Assembly: GCF_030936135.1 (NCBI RefSeq)
Contig: NC_082627.1
Coordinates: 141,172-205,171, forward strand
DNA from: Gavia stellata
Taxonomy: Eukaryota
Direction of reading: 5' to 3'
Length of the DNA: 64,000 nt
Made by a program: the position numbers. Positions 27,001 through 33,000 of this stretch are shown here, one piece after another. Each line of letters begins with the position of its first letter. Position 1 is the first letter of the stretch.

Positions 27001-30000
27001 CAGCTCCAAGATGGACCCATCGCTGGCCAAATCTGAACCCATCAGTGAAGCCAGTGGTGCCTTGGTGGTAACGTATTTAAGAAAGCATAAAAAAAATACT
27101 GCGCAACAGGAGCTGGGAGACAGAAGTGGGAAAATGTGAGAGAAACAGCCCTGCAAACACCAAGGACAGTGAAGAAGGAGGGGGAGGAGGTGCTCCAGGC
27201 ACCGGAGCAGAGATTCCCCTGCAGCCCGTGGTGAAGACCATGGTGAGGCAGGCTGTCCCCCTGCAGCAAGGGAGGTCCATGGTGGAGCAGATATCCACCT
27301 GAAGCCAGTGGAGGACCCCACGCCGGCGCAAGTGGATGTGTCCTGAAGGAAGCTGCAGCCAGTGCAGAGCTCACTATGGAGCAGGTTTCTGTCAGGACCT
27401 GCGGCCTGTCGAGAGGAGCCCATGCAGGAACAGGTTTTCTAGCAGAAACTGTGGCCCATGGGGGACCCACACTAAAGCAGGTCATGGACTGTACCCTGTG
27501 GGGAACCCATACTGGAGCAGTCCATTCGTGGAGGACTGTATCCTGTGAAAAGGACCCGTGCTGGAGTAGTTTGTGAAGGGCTGTGTCCTGTGGGTGGGAC
27601 CCCACGCTGGAGCAGAAGAGTGTGAGGAAGAAGGAGCGGCAGAGACAAAGTGTTATGGACTGACTGCAACCTCCATTCCCCCTCCCTGCACTGCTCGGTG
27701 GGAGAAGCTAGAAGAGTCAGGAGTGAAGTTTAGCCTGGGAAGGAGGGTTGGTGGGGAAAAGGTATTTTTAGTTTTGTTTTTGTTTCTCACTATCCTACTC
27801 TATTTTTAACTGGCAATCACATTAATCTTCCCCAAGTTGAGTCTGTTTTGCCCATGGCAGTAATTGGTGAGCATCTCCCTTTCCTTACCTTGACCCATGA
27901 GCTTTTTAATCTGATTTTCTCCCCCTCTCTTGCTGAGGAGGGAGAGTGAGAGAGCAGCTGGATGGGCATCTGGAAGCCAGCCAAGGTCTACCCACCACAC
28001 CGACAGAAGGGGAAATAAAAATCCTTCTCTGCCTTCTCTGTATTTTAAACACTTTCCTTTGGCACTGGCTATATGTCACTGCTGGTGACAGGGCACCAGC
28101 TCTGTGGTGCTTTGGTCTGACCCAGGAGAGCAGCTCTTGTGCAACAGGAGCAGGAGACAGGCCAAGGACTGGTGCCAGTGCTCGATCCTGACACCAAGCA
28201 CCTCTCTGCATGGCTAGGCAAAAGACTGAAACCTGCCCTGAGCTGGAGGTGCCGTGGGCACAGCTGGGGCTGTGTGTGCTGGAGTGGGGGGAGGTGGGAG
28301 GCAGGAGGGTCTCAGCCAAAGAGGGAGCACGGTTGCAGATTCAGGGCATGATGCTCAGTGCAGACTGAGAAGAAGGAAGGTTCAGGCTGACAGCGTGAAA
28401 AAAGGGTCCATCTGGGAAGGAGGAGGAAGAGACAAAAGAAGCTGTTTCTGCAGTGGATGCCAGCCAGGCAGGAGGGTGGCTCCCCTCCCCAGCATTGCCT
28501 GTCCTCCCGCTCCCACCAGCACCCAGGAAACAGAGTTTTCCTGGCCACCCTCGTGGGATGGAGAGCAGCAGCCTCTGGAGTCAGGGCTGTGCCCTGCTCT
28601 CCTCCCACCCAAGGGCAGGACTGGCTCCTGGGAAAGCGTTTCAAGATGGGGTGCGGTTGGCTTGACACGCGGAAACGAACTTCACAACTCACACAGAGTT
28701 ATAAAGCAGGCATGTTTATTGCAGCGCCGGGTGCAAGGGGATTTCTCCACAAAGCTTGCACACGGGGTTAAAATCATGACAGGTATTTAAAACAGTTAAC
28801 AAAGTTAGTTACGCCTACTGGTGCTACTCCTTAATTAACTATTGGTTAATATTTTTCTTACTTCATCTTAAAGTTACAGTTCTCTTTTAATTCACCACGC
28901 ATGCTCAGAGAGTAGGGGGCTAAATTGGGTTGGGGCTTCTCTAGCTAGGAGGTGTGTTTTTTAGTATTAAAATGAGATTATAATGAGACAAGTTAACTCT
29001 AGGGCACTATTTTGGCAGTCTTTTCTATTTTTCTACGATTCGTCCTTGCGCTAATCATTATTGCTAGTTAGCAGAGAGTCAGTGAAGACAGTCTTTATCA
29101 GCAGAGAGTCAGTGGAGACAGTCTTTATCTCTAATATGTCTAAGTACCAGGTGCAGTTGTTACAAAGTATCTTCTCTACATTTTTTTTTCTTACTTTTAA
29201 CCCTTGTTTCTCAAGATGCCCTGTAACAGGCTCAAGAAGAAAGGACCCCTCCAATGTTTGTCTCTCTCTTCCAACGCAAGAGACTGTCCTGCCTCTCACA
29301 GTGTGTTGACACCAAGACACTCCCCAGGTGAGGCCGTAACGATTCAAAGACAGCATTTCCATCATGTGCCCCTGTCTTTCCCCAGCCCTCCTCCTCCCCC
29401 AAGAAGGTCTGGCCCTGTTGGCCACTTCCAGCCCCCCAAATCACCAGGAATCCTCAGAGGAGGCCTCCAGGCTAGAAGGAGCAGCCCTGCCTGTGCCTTT
29501 TTGTGGAGGTACCAACTGCAGCTGGTGCCAAAGCTCACTCCTAGACACCAGGGAAGACCCATACAGGCTCAGCAACAGGGAACCAGCTTCTCCCACTCCC
29601 ATGGTGATGGAGGTGGGCCACACATCCCTGGGGGATTCTCTTCAGTGTCCGGTGGCCCCAGCATGCCTTCCTGGCCTGAGACACCCCAGGCATCCCAGCT
29701 TCCTCAGCCACTCTGCTCATCGTGGTGGTGCAGCCAGAGAGGACCCAGGCATCTGGGCACTGGCAGAGGAGAGGGGACATGGACACGGATGTGGGAAGGC
29801 AGGATGCGGGCCCCTGGGGTGGTCCTGTGCAGGGCAGGATGCGGGCCCCTGGGGTGGTCCTGTGCAGCTGATGGATCAGAGCTTGTTCTGAGAGAGACAA
29901 AGACAGGCCTGTGGAAAATTACAAGCGAAGCAATAAATAAGGGCTACGTGGCAAGGACTGGGCGTCCTTGAGAAGTGAGGATGTAGATAACAAGTAGTTA

Positions 30001-33000
30001 TGATCAAAGTAGAAGGGAGTTATACAGCTGCTCAAACTGCAAGTAGAAGAACATAAACAAAAGTAACTGTTAGGCTCAAACTGCAAGTAGACGTATGTTT
30101 TAGGCTCAGCCAATTAGGATCTAACAAGTAGGTGCGTATTAGGTCTAACAGTATAAATATGTGTTGCTTGAATAATAAAGTGGACTATGCTTTATCACTC
30201 ATATTGAGTCGGACGCATCTGTTCCTTCAGCCACGAACCGTCGGTCAACTCCTGGCATCGGGAAACTCCCGACATCTTCGGGAAACTCCCGACATCTGGC
30301 GCCCGAACAGGGACCGGCAAAGGGCGGCTGAAGCAGAGGGGCACCGGTTTGCAGCGACCGGGGGGTCAAGAGCGACTTATGACTGCTTTTACGGTCGGTG
30401 CGTCGTCTCCGAAGACCTGAGCTACTAGCTAGTTCGCCATTTCTGCGAGGGCTACAGGGGCAAAGGCTGCTTGCTGTCTGCAGGGTGAGGTACATATTGC
30501 TTTTATTTGCCACAGTGCAGGATGTGCCATAGTGCAGGATTTGCCTTAGTGCAGGATGTGCCATAGTGCAGGATTTGCCATAGTGCAGGATTTGCCTTAG
30601 TGCAGGATTTGCCGTAGTGCAGGATTTGCCATAGTGCAGGATTTGCCTTAGTGCAGGATTTGCCGTAGTGCAGGATTTGCCATAGTGCAGGATTTGCCGT
30701 AGTGCAGGATGTGCCGTAGTGCAGGATTTGCCATAGTGCAGGATTTGCCTTAGTGCAGGATTTGCCATAGTGCAGGATAACTGTTGCCGTAGTGCAGGAT
30801 AACCGGTTATGGAGTATGAAGTAGCCCTAGATTTCTTACAGCACCTTTTAGAAAAGCGGGGAGTAGAGTGTAAGCACTTAGCTGGTTTAATTGTTCTTGG
30901 GCGGGAGAAGTCGTGTTTTACTGCAACAGACTCGTTATTTGAAGTAACAGCATGGAGGAATCTGGGCGATGTGCTGTGGGATCTTGTGATAGATGAGGAT
31001 AAGATAGCAAAGAAGTTAATGAAACCATGGAGAGACGTGATAAATGCTATAAAACGATATCAGGTTGAGTGGAATGTTGCAGCCGTAGCCACGGAAAAGC
31101 TGGGAGGAGCGGGGGAGATGACTCCTGGGGAAAGCGGCGAGAGCTCTTTGCTTTTTAACAACAGCAAAGTTCCCGGGCCACCTTGCTGGGGACCAGTCCC
31201 AGTAACAGTGGTAGATAGGTCAAAATCGTGACATGCGGGGCACGTATCCCGGCAAGTGGCCGAGTCTCAAAAGAAAAAAAAAAAAAAGAGAAAAAAAAAA
31301 AGGGGGAGGAAAAAAAAAAAAAAGGGGGGGAGAAAAAACAAAAAAAGTAAAAAAAAGGAAAAAAACCAGGAGGGAAAAAAAAAAAAAAAAGAGGGGAAAA
31401 AAAAAAAAAAAGGAAAAAAAACCCGGGGGGGGGGGGGGGGAAACAAAAAAAAACCCCAACATCAGAAGGAGGGGAGCCGCCCTCATCACAGGGAGAAGGG
31501 TGGACTGGAGAAAGATAATGGGAGAGGCAATAGAGGAGGACAGATGTTAGAAAAAATGAGTAGAGTACCAATGGGAAATCAGGTGTTGTTAGTAGAAGCA
31601 GTGCGAGAGTTAGGGAAAGATATCATACAGGCACAGAGGCAAGCCTTTGCCGCCCTAGCCCCGCTGCGAACAGAAGACAAACGGTCTCGAGCTCCATCTC
31701 GTCGGGGAAATCAGTGCTTCCGCTGTGGCAGAGAGGGTCATCATCGTCGTGATTGCCGAGTGGATCAAGTATGGTGTGAAAACTGCAAATCTTCAAACCA
31801 CGATACCAGGGCTTGCCGACGATCGGGAAACGGCAAGCCGAGCGCGCAGGGTTGCCGCGCTACGACAACAGCGGCGGCCCCAGCACAGGTAGAGACCCAA
31901 CCGCAACCGACTGCTGCGTCTCCTCACAACCCACTACTGACAGTACGCTGCAACCCGCCACAAGGAGGAGCCTCGGACTGGATCTGGCAACAGCAGTAGA
32001 ATGTACGCAGTGGATCCCGGCGAAGTGGACAAGAGCGGTGATAGAGACATCGGACAACAGAAATAATCATGAAGATCCTGTGGAGTCTCACGCTAATCCT
32101 AATCTAAACTGATGTCCTGGACGGGTTACCAAGGGCGGCGTTTAACATAAAACAGAATGCATGGGGACTAGTGTGCCTTTCATCACTTGTCTAGTGGGAG
32201 TGCCATTGAATGACTCGGACTGGGGAACAGTAAATCAAACTGTTAATGAAATGAATGCTCGGTTGAATAAATCTGGTCGGGGAATTTTTGGGGGGTCTGC
32301 AAATACTCGGAGTGGTTTTCACTAAACGGATGGCTCAAAGGACTGTTACAAAGTATTTTTATGCTTTTAATAATCGTAGTAGTAGTAATATTATGTTTAA
32401 GCTGTGTTATGTCATGTCTTCGCCGGCTAGTGGAAAAAAGTTTTGGTCAAGCTCTCCTCATACAAAAAGAAAAAGGGGGAATTGTGGGAAGGCAGGATGC
32501 GGGCCCCTGGGGTGGTCCTGTGCAGGGCAGGATGCGGGCCCCTGGGGTGGTCCTGTGCAGCTGATGGATCAGAGCTTGTTCTGAGAGAGACAAAGACAGG
32601 CCTGTGGAAAATTACAAGCGAAGCAATAAATAAGGGCTACGTGGCAAGGACTGGGCGTCCTTGAGAAGTGAGGATGTAGATAACAAGTAGTTATGATCAA
32701 AGTAGAAGGGAGTTATACAGCTGCTCAAACTGCAAGTAGAAGAACATAAACAAAAGTAACTGTTAGGCTCAAACTGCAAGTAGACGTATGTTTTAGGCTC
32801 AGCCAATTAGGATCTAACAAGTAGGTGCGTATTAGGTCTAACGGTATAAATATGTGTTGCTTGAATAATAAAGTGGACTATGCTTTATCACTCATATTGA
32901 GTCGGACGCATCTGTTCCTTCAGCCGCGAACCGTCGGTCAACTCCTGGCATCGGGAAACTCCCGACATCTTCGGGAAACTCCCGACACACGGACACACAC

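What the first reader, a model, noticed from the sequence alone, without database searches (positions are those of the whole stretch)
29790..32987. Internally deleted ERVK-like provirus with a tRNA-Lys3 PBS and intact 6-bp TSD, sitting about 45 bp downstream of the arm gene's poly(A) site
This is a textbook proviral architecture. The LTRs are about 504 bp (TG...CA). A perfect 18-nt tRNA-Lys3 PBS lies 2 nt after the 5' LTR. A PPT abuts the 3' LTR. The TSD is 6 bp (CACGGA), the size typical of beta- and alpharetroviruses. The internal region is only about 2.2 kb. It retains a matrix-like gag N-terminus, a nucleocapsid with two CCHC knuckles and the env membrane-anchor/cytoplasmic tail, and it lacks pro, pol and most of env. 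The position immediately downstream of the gene's polyadenylation signal puts the LTR enhancer and promoter within about 2.5 kb of the gene body, so it could influence its expression. Lys3-primed class II ERVs are a minority among described avian ERVs.
Basis: partly seen in the sequence, partly recalled or inferred. Interest (0 to 1): 0.55.

Follow-up and report, generated by a model that had tools for sequence, protein, structure and literature searches.

The report
Deleted bird endogenous retrovirus, mirrored twice
This is an ordinary fossil retrovirus in a bird genome: young, missing most of its genes, of the betaretrovirus-like (ERVK-like) kind, and present twice in the window because the DNA around it was later copied as a mirror image.

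Summary
Two 505-bp LTRs (29790-30294, 32483-32987; TG..CA; 2 mismatches) are flanked by a perfect 6-bp duplication (CACGGA). An exact 18-nt tRNA-Lys3 primer-binding site lies 2 nt after the 5' LTR, and a polypurine tract lies 2 nt before the 3' LTR.

The internal 2.19 kb is a mosaic of retroviral remnants:
- Gag matrix;
- an A/G-rich tract;
- a stub from just upstream of capsid;
- the capsid end plus a two-knuckle nucleocapsid;
- a conserved G_GGA_AAC slip site leading into the first dUTPase motif in the -1 frame;
- the integrase tail, fused directly to that motif;
- the env signal peptide and the start of the surface subunit;
- the env membrane anchor and tail.

Relatives are Gag proteins of many bird species that NCBI labels ERVK-like. 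One is a full-length provirus in the crested eagle with the same primer site, dUTPase-protease, pol and an avian-gp85-type env. All nine readable relatives use the Lys3 site.

The finding does not mention a second, 100% identical mirror copy with the same duplication at 54677-57874. The provirus lies inside a palindrome arm of at least 15.75 kb (99.95% identity), so there was one integration, copied later. The neighbouring "gene" has no detectable homologue, and no regulatory effect is shown. This is a new member of a known kind, of low interest.

The parts
29784..29789 (+). Left target-site duplication, CACGGA
   Evidence: Identical to 32988-32993.
29790..30294 (+). 5' LTR, 505 bp, TG..CA. 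Contains a 35-bp x2 repeat (29798-29867), a 17-bp enhancer-like repeat (30031-47 and 30075-91), CCAAT at 30110, TATAAA at 30152-57 and AATAAA at 30174-79. Inferred layout: R about 30180-30197, U5 to 30294. The U5 end carries a 20-bp x2 duplication (30258-30297).
   Evidence: The R/U5 motif CACTCATATTGAGT is shared with relatives. The U3/R/U5 borders are inferred from the TATA and AATAAA positions, not mapped.
30297..30314 (+). Primer-binding site, exact complement of the tRNA-Lys3 3' end
   Evidence: The same PBS follows the LTR in L001-L009.
30505..30778 (+). 17-bp x16 tandem array (ATTTGCCATAGTGCAGG) in the leader between the PBS and gag
   Evidence: Absent from relatives, whose leaders are about 200-340 nt.
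30809..31231 (+). Gag N-terminus: matrix domain (no Gly2, so no myristoylation signal) plus the start of the linker, corresponding to Gag residues 1 to about 130. Ends in a premature TGA.
31269..31450 (+). A/G-rich low-complexity tract (125 A, 49 G, 7 C, 1 T). It occupies the place of Gag residues of about 131-185.
   Evidence: Origin unknown; a sequencing artefact is not excluded.
31500..31544 (+). Stub of the Gag region just upstream of capsid (VDWRKIMGEAIEEDR), in a different frame. The deletion junction is at about 31544.
   Evidence: aligns to Gag residues of about 190-213 in relatives.
31544..31999 (+). End of the capsid C-terminal domain, nucleocapsid with two CCHC knuckles (31715-31756, 31775-31816) and the Gag C-terminus with its stop. 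Corresponds to Gag residues 437-593 of L008.
31825..31831 (+). G_GGA_AAC slippery heptamer in the gag frame (gag-pro -1 frameshift site)
   Evidence: Conserved at the same place in L008. The downstream structure is not significant.
31832..32007 (+). Pro-frame (-1) remnant ending in dUTPase motif I (SLGLDLATAVECT, 31969-32007)
   Evidence: The tblastn alignment to L008 pro residues 1-95 (40% identity, E 7e-14) spans window 31723-32007; this part is its portion downstream of the slip site. L008 pro matches Pfam dUTPase at 1.2e-17. The remnant alone is too short for Pfam.
32008..32112 (+). Integrase C-terminal tail (QWIPAKWTR...), fused directly to the dUTPase stub. This is the junction of a pro-pol deletion of about 3.2 kb.
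   Evidence: 7 of 9 residues identical to L008 pol residues 668-676, E 0.045. Weak on its own, but collinear and followed by the pol stop.
32069..32214 (+). Env start: signal-peptide-like MKILWSLTLILI (32069-32104) and the surface-subunit N-terminus SVPFITCLVGVPLND (32170-32214). Broken by a stop and a frameshift.
   Evidence: E 2.4e-4 for the SU piece; the signal-peptide piece is weak, E 0.85.
32292..32480 (+). Env transmembrane-subunit membrane anchor and cytoplasmic tail
   Evidence: aligns to the ends of the L008 and L001 env proteins.
32464..32482 (+). Polypurine tract AAAAAGAAAAAGGGGGA plus AT
   Evidence: The same PPT is present in L001.
32483..32987 (+). 3' LTR
32988..32993 (+). Right target-site duplication, CACGGA
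54671..57880 (-). Mirror copy of the whole provirus (54677-57874) with the same TSD, in the other palindrome arm
   Evidence: 100% identical.
23664..39414 (.). Palindrome arm A, which carries the provirus. Arm B is 48252-64000 and runs off the window. The spacer is 39415-48251.
   Evidence: 99.95% identity; 5 substitutions in the arm body, further differences only at the inner edge.

Best explanation
A betaretrovirus-like (class II, 'ERVK-like') avian retroviral genome was reverse-transcribed from a tRNA-Lys3 primer and integrated once into the germ line of a bird. Integration produced a 6-bp target duplication, in the GT-rich stretch about 45 nt past an AATAAA hexamer on the opposite strand.

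The integrated copy keeps every cis element needed for replication: both LTRs, the PBS, the leader with the 5' end of gag, and the PPT. It has lost most of capsid, almost all of pro and pol, and most of env. It cannot replicate on its own. Most likely it was already defective when it integrated, having been packaged and copied with proteins supplied by a complete relative.

After the two LTRs had acquired two differences, the surrounding segment of at least 15.75 kb became the two arms of an inverted repeat (or was homogenised between them). That gave two identical mirror copies. Nothing indicates a present function.

Shown: the anatomy, the homology, the single insertion event and the order of events. 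Inferred: that the deletions preceded integration, the U3/R/U5 borders, and the age (roughly 0.6-1 My from 2 differences in 505 bp under assumed avian neutral rates of 1.9-3.3e-9 per site per year).
For: Anatomy:
- LTRs, TSD, PBS and PPT are as described.

Gag homology and kind:
- A profile of the N-terminal ORF finds 153 proteins. The best are the N-termini of complete bird Gag proteins with Gag_p24, Gag_p24_C and zf-CCHC, which NCBI names ERVK-like.
- hhalign gives 98.8% probability against Gag_p10-type matrix domains.
- The AlphaFold model has pLDDT above 90 over residues 11-90. Its top fold hits are RSV and MPMV matrix.

Full-length relative L008:
- It has the same PBS 2 nt after its LTR, gag, dUTPase+RVP in the -1 frame, RT/RNaseH/IN, and an Avian_gp85/TLV_coat env.
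- Its IN, dUTPase and CA match betaretroviral or HERV-K PDB chains better than RSV ones.

Collinear mapping of the window's remnants:
- The remnants map collinearly onto L008.
- The slip site is conserved.

Single insertion, then duplication:
- The mirror copy is 100% identical with the same TSD.
- The same two LTR differences are present in both arms.
- LTR divergence (2/505) exceeds arm divergence (about 6/15740): Poisson P = 0.016, Fisher P = 0.02-0.04.

Defective before integration:
- The LTRs carry 2 substitutions and no indel in 1010 bp.
- The 2.19-kb interior carries at least three large deletions, two repeat expansions, stops and frameshifts.
- Relatives also occur as independently deleted forms: L002 lacks the capsid N-terminal domain, and L009 is gag-only.
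Against: - No pol is left in the window, so the class assignment rests on gag, the pro stub, the LTR/PBS layout and relatives that are only 40-59% identical in protein.
- The matrix ORF gives no direct Pfam or PDB sequence hit.
- The dUTPase stub is too short to score on its own.
- The frameshift-stimulating RNA structure is not better than shuffles.
- No other copy of this LTR was found in the window or in metagenome and viral collections. So amplification of the deleted form is not shown, and post-integration deletion is not excluded.
- LTR-LTR gene conversion could make the insertion look younger than it is.
- The host species, and hence its neutral rate, is unknown.
Confidence: 0.85

Rival explanations
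1. A complete provirus integrated here and lost its capsid, pro-pol and env segments afterwards, through ordinary genomic deletions at the locus. It was never mobilised as a defective element.
For: [quoted passage not shown] No second insertion of the deleted form was found. The locus lies in a rearrangement-prone palindrome rich in repeats.
Against: This would need at least three separate large deletions plus frameshifts and two repeat expansions within 2.19 kb, in the time in which 1010 bp of LTR gained only 2 substitutions and no indel. Both arm copies are identical, so all lesions predate the arm duplication.
Confidence: 0.3
2. The provirus, and especially its 3' LTR which faces the neighbouring transcription unit, has been co-opted as an enhancer, promoter or antisense promoter for the small secreted-peptide gene in the palindrome arm.
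For: The LTR has CCAAT, TATA and duplicated U3 motifs. It lies 46 nt from a minus-strand AATAAA, about 2.4 kb from a signal-peptide-like first exon with a TATA-like box. Transcripts starting in the 3' LTR would lack the LTR's own AATAAA and would read antisense into that unit (inference from the layout).
Against: There are no expression data. The 'gene' is an exon model of mine with no homologue and no Pfam family. The insertion is convergent with it and downstream of it. Nothing shows conservation or selection of the LTR.
Confidence: 0.05
3. Part of what is seen is an assembly artefact: the A/G-rich tract (31269-31450) and/or the inverted duplication that makes the second copy.
For: The tract is homopolymer-rich noise-like sequence with only 1 T in 182 nt. 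The two provirus copies are 100% identical. Arm B runs off the window, so its outer edge is unseen.
Against: The arms differ at 5 scattered substitutions in the arm body and are separated by an 8.8-kb unique spacer holding a CR1 element. That is not what a fold-back read artefact gives. The provirus signals themselves (LTR pair, TSD, PBS, PPT) cannot be artefacts.
Confidence: 0.1
4. The element belongs with the alpharetrovirus or 'alphabeta' lineage rather than with beta-like ERVK elements.
For: - Relatives carry an Avian_gp85-type env with an ALV-like transmembrane subunit.
- Gag starts with ME and has no myristoylation glycine.
- The best structural match of the matrix model is RSV MA.
- The LTR has AATAAA between TATA and a very short R, as in ALV (plus my own knowledge).
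- The TSD is 6 bp.
Against: - The PBS is Lys3, not Trp.
- The pro remnant is in the -1 frame behind a G_GGA_AAC site and begins with a dUTPase motif. According to PMC3482500, alpha ERVs use the 0/-1 pattern and the alphabeta clade lacks dUTPase.
- The IN of relative L008 matches the best PDB integrase chains (which I recall as MMTV) at 3e-71, against 1e-37 to 1e-38 for RSV IN chains. Its CA matches HERV-K CA best.
Confidence: 0.1

Closest known systems
Avian beta-like class II ERVs (the 'avibeta1' clades with dUTPase of Bolisetty et al. 2012, PMC3482500; bird loci that NCBI names 'endogenous retrovirus group K member 113 Gag polyprotein-like', 'GA113', 'GAK9', 'GAK19')
   Same: - Homologous Gag matrix and nucleocapsid (40-59% identity).
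- Two zinc knuckles.
- -1 gag-pro slip site followed by dUTPase.
- The same Lys3 PBS, the same PPT and the same R/U5 motif.
- Full-length relative L008 in Morphnus guianensis.

   Different: - The nearest protein in the databases is only about 59% identical in matrix, so this particular lineage is not represented there.
- The window copy lacks capsid, pro, pol and most of env.
- It has a 17-bp x16 array in the leader and an A/G-rich tract in gag.
- I could not place it in a named avibeta subclade, because that scheme is Pol-based and pol is deleted here.
Mouse mammary tumour virus and other mammalian betaretroviruses (MPMV, HERV-K HML-2)
   Same: - tRNA-Lys3 primer (MMTV; my own knowledge).
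- 6-bp TSD.
- Two CCHC knuckles.
- Gag_p10-type matrix.
- dUTPase at the start of pro behind a -1 frameshift (G GGA AAC as in MPMV/SRV-1; my own knowledge).
- For relative L008: the best PDB integrase chains (3jca, 7usf, 5cz1, 5cz2), which I recall as MMTV (the table names them only 'Integrase'), the MPMV dUTPase 2d4l (identity likewise from memory), and chains the table labels 'Endogenous retrovirus group K' Gag are the best solved matches.
   Different: - Bird host.
- No myristoylation signal.
- Env of the avian gp85/gp37 type in the relatives.
- No accessory genes seen.
- G-patch not examined (reported absent from chicken beta-like ERVs, PMC1224870).
Avian leukosis / Rous sarcoma virus (Alpharetrovirus)
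   Same: - 6-bp TSD.
- Gag starts with ME and is not myristoylated.
- Matrix fold (TM 0.76 to RSV MA).
- Env family of the relatives.
- LTR with a very short R and AATAAA upstream of it.
   Different: - The PBS is Lys3, not Trp.
- Pro is in the -1 frame with dUTPase rather than fused in frame to gag.
- Integrase and capsid of the relative are closer to betaretroviral ones.
Internally deleted, trans-mobilised LTR elements (chicken ART-CH; mouse ETn/MusD and IAP deletion forms). Named from my own knowledge, not tested here.
   Same: A short (about 3.2 kb) element that keeps LTRs, PBS, leader and PPT plus scraps of gag, pol and env. It has many more lesions inside than in the LTRs.
   Different: No second copy at another site was available, so mobilisation of this deleted form is inferred, not shown. 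ART-CH is ALV-related with a Trp PBS (from memory).

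Membership tests
Retroviral provirus (LTR-PBS-...-PPT-LTR with TSD) | Two cognate LTRs in direct orientation ending in TG...CA | tested here: met
   505 bp each, 503/505 identical.
Retroviral provirus (LTR-PBS-...-PPT-LTR with TSD) | Short target-site duplication directly flanking the LTRs | tested here: met
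   CACGGA on both sides. The same is true at the mirror copy.
Retroviral provirus (LTR-PBS-...-PPT-LTR with TSD) | tRNA-complementary PBS just after the 5' LTR and a PPT just before the 3' LTR | tested here: met
   18/18 match to the Lys3 PBS, 2 nt after CA. The PPT is 2 nt before TG.
Retroviral provirus (LTR-PBS-...-PPT-LTR with TSD) | gag, pol and env coding sequence between the LTRs | tested here: inconclusive
   The gag matrix and nucleocapsid are clearly homologous to bird Gag proteins. Pol is reduced to a 9-residue integrase match plus tail (E 0.045). Env is reduced to its two ends.
Class II / betaretrovirus-like (ERVK-like) ERV | 6-bp TSD | tested here: met
   That this size marks alpha-, beta- and deltaretroviruses is established knowledge.
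Class II / betaretrovirus-like (ERVK-like) ERV | Lysine tRNA primer | tested here: met
   Exact Lys3 PBS. [quoted passage not shown]
Class II / betaretrovirus-like (ERVK-like) ERV | Nucleocapsid with two CCHC zinc knuckles | tested here: met
   CFRCGREGHHRRDC and CENCKSSNHDTRAC.
Class II / betaretrovirus-like (ERVK-like) ERV | Gag_p10-type matrix domain | tested here: met
   There is no direct Pfam hit. However, hhalign gives 98.8% probability (E 1e-16) against matrix domains of which 7 of 8 match PF02337. The fold search ranks retroviral matrix proteins first.
Class II / betaretrovirus-like (ERVK-like) ERV | gag and pro in different frames, joined by a -1 frameshift | tested here: met
   G_GGA_AAC lies in the gag frame at 31825-31831. 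The -1 frame aligns to L008 pro (E 7e-14), and the site is conserved in L008. Frameshifting itself is not testable, and the stimulatory structure is not significant.
Class II / betaretrovirus-like (ERVK-like) ERV | dUTPase at the N-terminus of pro | tested here: inconclusive
   Only motif I (SLGLDLATAVECT) survives and it has no Pfam hit on its own. It aligns to the start of the dUTPase domain of L008, which matches PF00692 at 1.2e-17.
Class II / betaretrovirus-like (ERVK-like) ERV | Pol (RT/IN) phylogeny within class II | not testable with these tools
   Pol is deleted in the window. For relative L008 the best solved integrases (3jca, 7usf) score 3e-71, against 1e-37 to 1e-38 for RSV IN chains, and the best RT-like hit is 7sr6. 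No tree was built.
Alpharetrovirus | tRNA-Trp PBS, pro fused in frame to gag, and no dUTPase | tested here: not met
   The PBS is Lys3. The pro stub is in the -1 frame and begins with a dUTPase motif.
Non-autonomous, trans-mobilised deletion derivative | Several insertions at different sites that share the same internal deletion junctions | not testable with these tools
   The host genome is not available. There is no other copy in the window apart from the palindromic duplicate, and none in metagenome or viral collections.

The most novel reading that the evidence does not exclude
The 3.2-kb element is one copy of a recently active (under about 1 My), non-autonomous retroelement family in this bird. 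It would be a 'mini-Gag' vector (matrix, basic linker, nucleocapsid, open in one frame except for a single stop) that is packaged and copied by full-length Lys3-primed beta-like ERVs. In that case its LTR, carried into both arms of a young palindrome, now drives antisense or read-out transcription across a lineage-specific secreted-peptide gene.
Probability: 0.1. Interest if true: 0.4.

Novelty: new member of a known kind. Interest (0 to 1): 0.15.

Why it matters
The main value is as a marker. The provirus is a single dated insertion that lies inside both arms of a palindrome. Its LTR divergence (0.4%) against the arm divergence (about 0.04%) shows that the arms were formed or last homogenised after the insertion. 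The shared TSD proves that the two copies descend from one event.

It also adds a data point on a widespread bird ERV lineage. That lineage combines betaretroviral gag-pro features and a Lys3 primer with an ALV-type env and a non-myristoylated, RSV-like matrix. This fits the published picture of a beta-to-alpha continuum in birds. None of this is surprising to a specialist.

Tried and rejected
- Direct Pfam and PDB sequence searches with the matrix ORF found nothing. Profile and fold searches were needed.
- Pfam on the 95-residue pro-frame stub found nothing.
- An exact-protein look-up of the matrix ORF found no record.
- Rfam over the whole window gave no hit.
- The bacterial promoter/terminator scan is irrelevant to a eukaryotic LTR and was no better than shuffles.
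- RNA folding downstream of the slip site gave z = -1.1 for the window and 0.0 for L008. A stimulatory structure is not supported.
- Scans of metagenome and viral contigs for the U3 start of this LTR gave 0 hits.
- A scan for the conserved 16-mer ATCACTCATATTGAGT returned mostly chance microbial matches. Only two retroviral ones appeared, one of them already known.
- My 68-residue spliced model of the neighbouring gene has no homologue and no Pfam family.
- The CR1 reverse-transcriptase ORF identified the host only as a bird: 85-88% identity to CR1 ORFs of stork, crane, godwit and goose. No species was identified.
- Literature searches did not yield a census of PBS usage in avian class II ERVs.
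- I considered that the first ORF might be an upstream leader ORF rather than matrix, because contig L001 has a second, MG-start Gag_p10-like ORF after it. I rejected this because in L002, L005, L006 and the full Gag proteins the domain is the N-terminus of Gag and is followed by a PSAP motif and capsid.

Full report
**Observation**

The sequence at 29790-32987 has all the signals of a provirus.
- Two 505-bp direct repeats (29790-30294 and 32483-32987) begin with TG and end with CA. They differ at only two positions (30150/32843 and 30233/32926, A versus G).
- They are flanked by CACGGA on both sides (29784-29789, 32988-32993).
- Two bases after the 5' LTR lies TGGCGCCCGAACAGGGAC (30297-30314). 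It has no chance match in 100 shuffles of the window. It is printed as the tRNA-Lys,3 primer-binding site, distinct from the Lys1,2 site, in PMC1084362.
- The polypurine run AAAAAGAAAAAGGGGGA (32464-32480) is followed by AT and then the 3' LTR.
- The two-base gaps (TC after U5, AT before U3) are what integrase trimming of the linear DNA leaves. This follows from established knowledge of retroviral integration.

**What the finding did not say**

The whole provirus, with the same CACGGA on both sides, occurs again on the minus strand at 54677-57874 and is 100% identical.
- The window holds a large inverted repeat. Arm A is 23664-39414. Arm B is 48252-64000 and runs off the window. The arms are 99.95% identical and separated by an 8.8-kb spacer that carries a CR1-type LINE.
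- The arms differ at five substitutions in the body (24110, 25297, 29319, 34368, 38484), plus a few differences at the inner edge. None lies in the provirus.
- The same TSD and the same two LTR differences in both arms mean one integration followed by duplication or homogenisation of the arm.
- LTR divergence (2/505) is about ten times the arm divergence. It is unlikely under the arm rate (Poisson P = 0.016; Fisher P = 0.02-0.04).
- With assumed avian neutral rates of 1.9-3.3e-9 per site per year, the insertion would be roughly 0.6-1 My old, and the arms were last identical roughly 0.06-0.1 My ago. Two differences give a very wide error, and the host is unknown.

**What the interior is**

The first ORF (30809-31231, 140 aa, MEYEVALDFL...) has no Pfam or PDB sequence match. 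A word-indexed search found only five unnamed homologues from metagenome and SRA contigs. Every one of those contigs that reaches upstream has the Lys3 PBS two bases after an LTR end.

A profile of the six sequences, searched against 1.84 billion representatives, found 153 proteins.
- The best long ones are complete Gag polyproteins with Gag_p24, Gag_p24_C and zf-CCHC, in which the domain is the N-terminus.
- They come from swift, crested eagle, gannet, storm petrel, tinkerbird, leafbird, tinamou and sage grouse. NCBI names several of them 'endogenous retrovirus group K member 113 Gag polyprotein-like', 'GA113', 'GAK9' or 'GAK19'.
- More distant hits start with MG and match Pfam Gag_p10 at the same place.
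- Profile-profile alignment of the two groups gives 98.8% probability, E 1e-16.
- An AlphaFold model of the window ORF is confident over residues 1-99 and has five helices. Its best PDB matches are RSV matrix (TM 0.76, rmsd 2.5 A over 95 columns), then MPMV and HIV matrix, although the E-values are weak.

So the 'matrix-like N-terminus' is right. It lacks the Gly2 myristoylation signal, as RSV matrix does.

**A full-length relative as a ruler**

Locus L008 (Morphnus guianensis, CM098422.1) contains a 7.6-kb provirus.
- LTRs at 9253-9639 and 16478-16863, 97.9% identical.
- A perfect Lys3 PBS at 9642.
- gag at 10001-11782.
- A -1 pro ORF with dUTPase (PF00692, 1.2e-17) and RVP.
- pol with RVT, thumb, RNase H and integrase domains.
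- env with Avian_gp85 and TLV_coat.

Its integrase matches the top PDB integrase chains (3jca, 7usf, 5cz1/2) at up to 3e-71, against 1e-37 to 1e-38 for RSV integrase chains. I recall the top chains as MMTV; the table gives only 'Integrase'. Its dUTPase matches 2d4l best, which I recall as MPMV. Its capsid matches HERV-K Gag chains best.

Mapped on L008 and other full Gag proteins, the window keeps the following pieces.
- Gag residues 1 to about 130 (30809-31228).
- An A/G-rich tract (31269-31450; 125 A, 49 G, 7 C, 1 T) where residues of about 131-185 should be.
- A 15-residue stub of the region before capsid (31500-31544, another frame).
- A jump at about 31544 to Gag residues 437-593: the end of capsid, two CCHC knuckles at 31715-31756 and 31775-31816, and the Gag stop at 31997-31999.
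- The slippery heptamer G_GGA_AAC (31825-31831), in the gag frame and conserved in L008.
- The -1 frame, which aligns to L008 pro residues 1-95 (40% identity, E 7e-14) and ends in the first dUTPase motif, SLGLDLATAVECT (31969-32007).
- The next codon, which starts QWIPAKWTR (32008-32034). This matches the integrase C-terminus (L008 pol residues 668-676, 7/9, E 0.045) and is followed by the pol stop at 32110-32112. This marks a pro-pol deletion of about 3.2 kb.
- A signal-peptide-like MKILWSLTLILI (32069-32104; weak match).
- The surface-subunit N-terminus SVPFITCLVGVPLND (32170-32214; 67% identity to L008, E 2.4e-4).
- The transmembrane anchor and cytoplasmic tail (32292-32480), which run into the PPT.

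'Lacks pro, pol and most of env' is therefore nearly but not strictly true.

**LTR layout**

- U3 has a 35-bp tandem duplication at its start, a repeated 17-mer, CCAAT (30110) and TATAAA (30152).
- AATAAA (30174) sits between the TATA box and the expected start site. R must therefore be very short.
- A motif CACTCATATTGAGT follows and is shared with the relatives.
- This is the ALV/MMTV type of LTR (my own knowledge). The borders are inferred.
- The U5 end is a triple degenerate repeat whose last two units are identical 20-mers (30258-30297).
- The leader carries a 17-bp x16 array (30505-30778) that the relatives lack.

**Mechanism and status**

The element keeps all cis-acting parts but none of the enzymes, so it cannot move by itself.
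- The interior has at least three large deletions, two repeat expansions, a premature stop and several frameshifts.
- The 1010 bp of LTR show two substitutions and no indel.
- Both arm copies are identical.

I therefore think the genome was already defective when it integrated and was copied in trans by a complete relative (about 0.6). Post-integration decay is the rival (about 0.3). Independently deleted relatives exist: L002 lacks the capsid N-terminal domain, and L009 in Apus apus is gag-only. This shows that such forms are common in the lineage. It does not show that this one was mobilised.

**The neighbouring gene**

On the minus strand there is a TATA-like box and a signal-peptide-like first exon (ATG at 35391). 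Three further small exons have good splice sites. There is a stop near 33651 and an AATAAA at 33039-33034. A GT-rich stretch follows and ends in the target site.
- The LTR end is 46 nt from the hexamer, and the provirus is convergent with this unit.
- My 68-residue model has no homologue and no Pfam family, so the gene is unverified.
- Any effect of the LTR on it is conjecture.

**Comparison and novelty**

The element works like, and by the tested features belongs with, the beta-like class II ERVs of birds. That group is described as a continuum from beta to alphabeta to alpha (PMC3482500, PMC1224870).
- Beta-like features: -1 gag-pro frameshift, dUTPase, two zinc knuckles, lysine primer.
- Alpha-like traits in the lineage: gp85-type env, non-myristoylated RSV-like matrix.
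- The Trp-primed, in-frame gag-pro, dUTPase-less definition of Alpharetrovirus is not met.
- All nine relatives whose 5' end could be read have the Lys3 PBS (six exact, two with one mismatch, one with a 4-nt insertion), so within this lineage Lys3 is the rule.

This is a new member of a known kind, and the interest is low. Its practical use is as a dated marker for the history of the palindrome.

Noticed in passing
window 23664-39414 and 48252-64000; spacer 39415-48251: A large palindrome with arms of at least 15.75 kb at 99.95% identity: 5 substitutions in the body, plus differences at the inner edge 39392-39414. Arm B runs off the window, so the outer boundary is unseen.
   Followed up: partly
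window 3764-5873 (+), 18311-19505 (-), 42438-45900 (-), 16079-16473: CR1-type LINE copies (RVT_1 and Exo_endo_phos domains), 88-97% identical to each other. One sits in the palindrome spacer. The RT ORF at 4560-5714 is 85-88% identical to CR1 ORFs annotated in stork, crane, godwit and goose. The host is therefore a bird, but the species was not identified.
   Followed up: partly
window 30505-30778: A 17-bp x16 tandem array (ATTTGCCATAGTGCAGG, 92% matches) lies in the proviral leader between the PBS and gag. It roughly doubles the leader length relative to other members of the lineage.
   Followed up: partly
window 31269-31450: A 182-nt A/G-rich low-complexity tract (1 T, 7 C) inside gag that reads as poly-lysine in the gag frame. 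Apart from the single TGA at 31229-31231, that frame is open from 30809 to the gag stop at 31997-31999. Whether the tract is a real expansion or homopolymer sequencing noise is open.
   Followed up: no
window 30241-30297 and 32934-32987: The U5 3' end consists of three degenerate tandem units. The last two are identical 20-mers, TCGGGAAACTCCCGACATCT, each ending in the LTR-terminal CA plus TC plus T. The U5/PBS junction itself thus appears to have been duplicated before integration, and both LTRs carry the duplication.
   Followed up: no
window 35391-33020, minus strand: A putative four-exon gene for a 68-residue secreted peptide (MKVAVLSMALLFAILLCTPEDAQ...). It has a TATA-like box, good splice sites and AATAAA at 33039-33034, and is present in both arms. 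No homologue and no Pfam family were found.
   Followed up: partly
L001 4323-4877: In this 5-kb metagenome contig the lineage's first gag ORF is followed by a second ORF that starts with MG and weakly matches Gag_p10. The upstream part mixes env and RT pieces. It is either a recombinant or scrambled provirus or a chimeric assembly.
   Followed up: no
L009 9290-12852 and 1846: The Apus apus locus carries a gag-only, internally deleted provirus of the same lineage (LTRs about 95% identical, Lys3 PBS at 9725). A further Lys3 PBS lies 8 kb upstream. Independent internal deletions recur in this lineage.
   Followed up: partly
window 39294-39593: An ORF at the inner edge of arm A (MDPGAQCTLMP...) looks superficially like a retroviral protease active-site region, but it has no Pfam hit.
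   Followed up: partly
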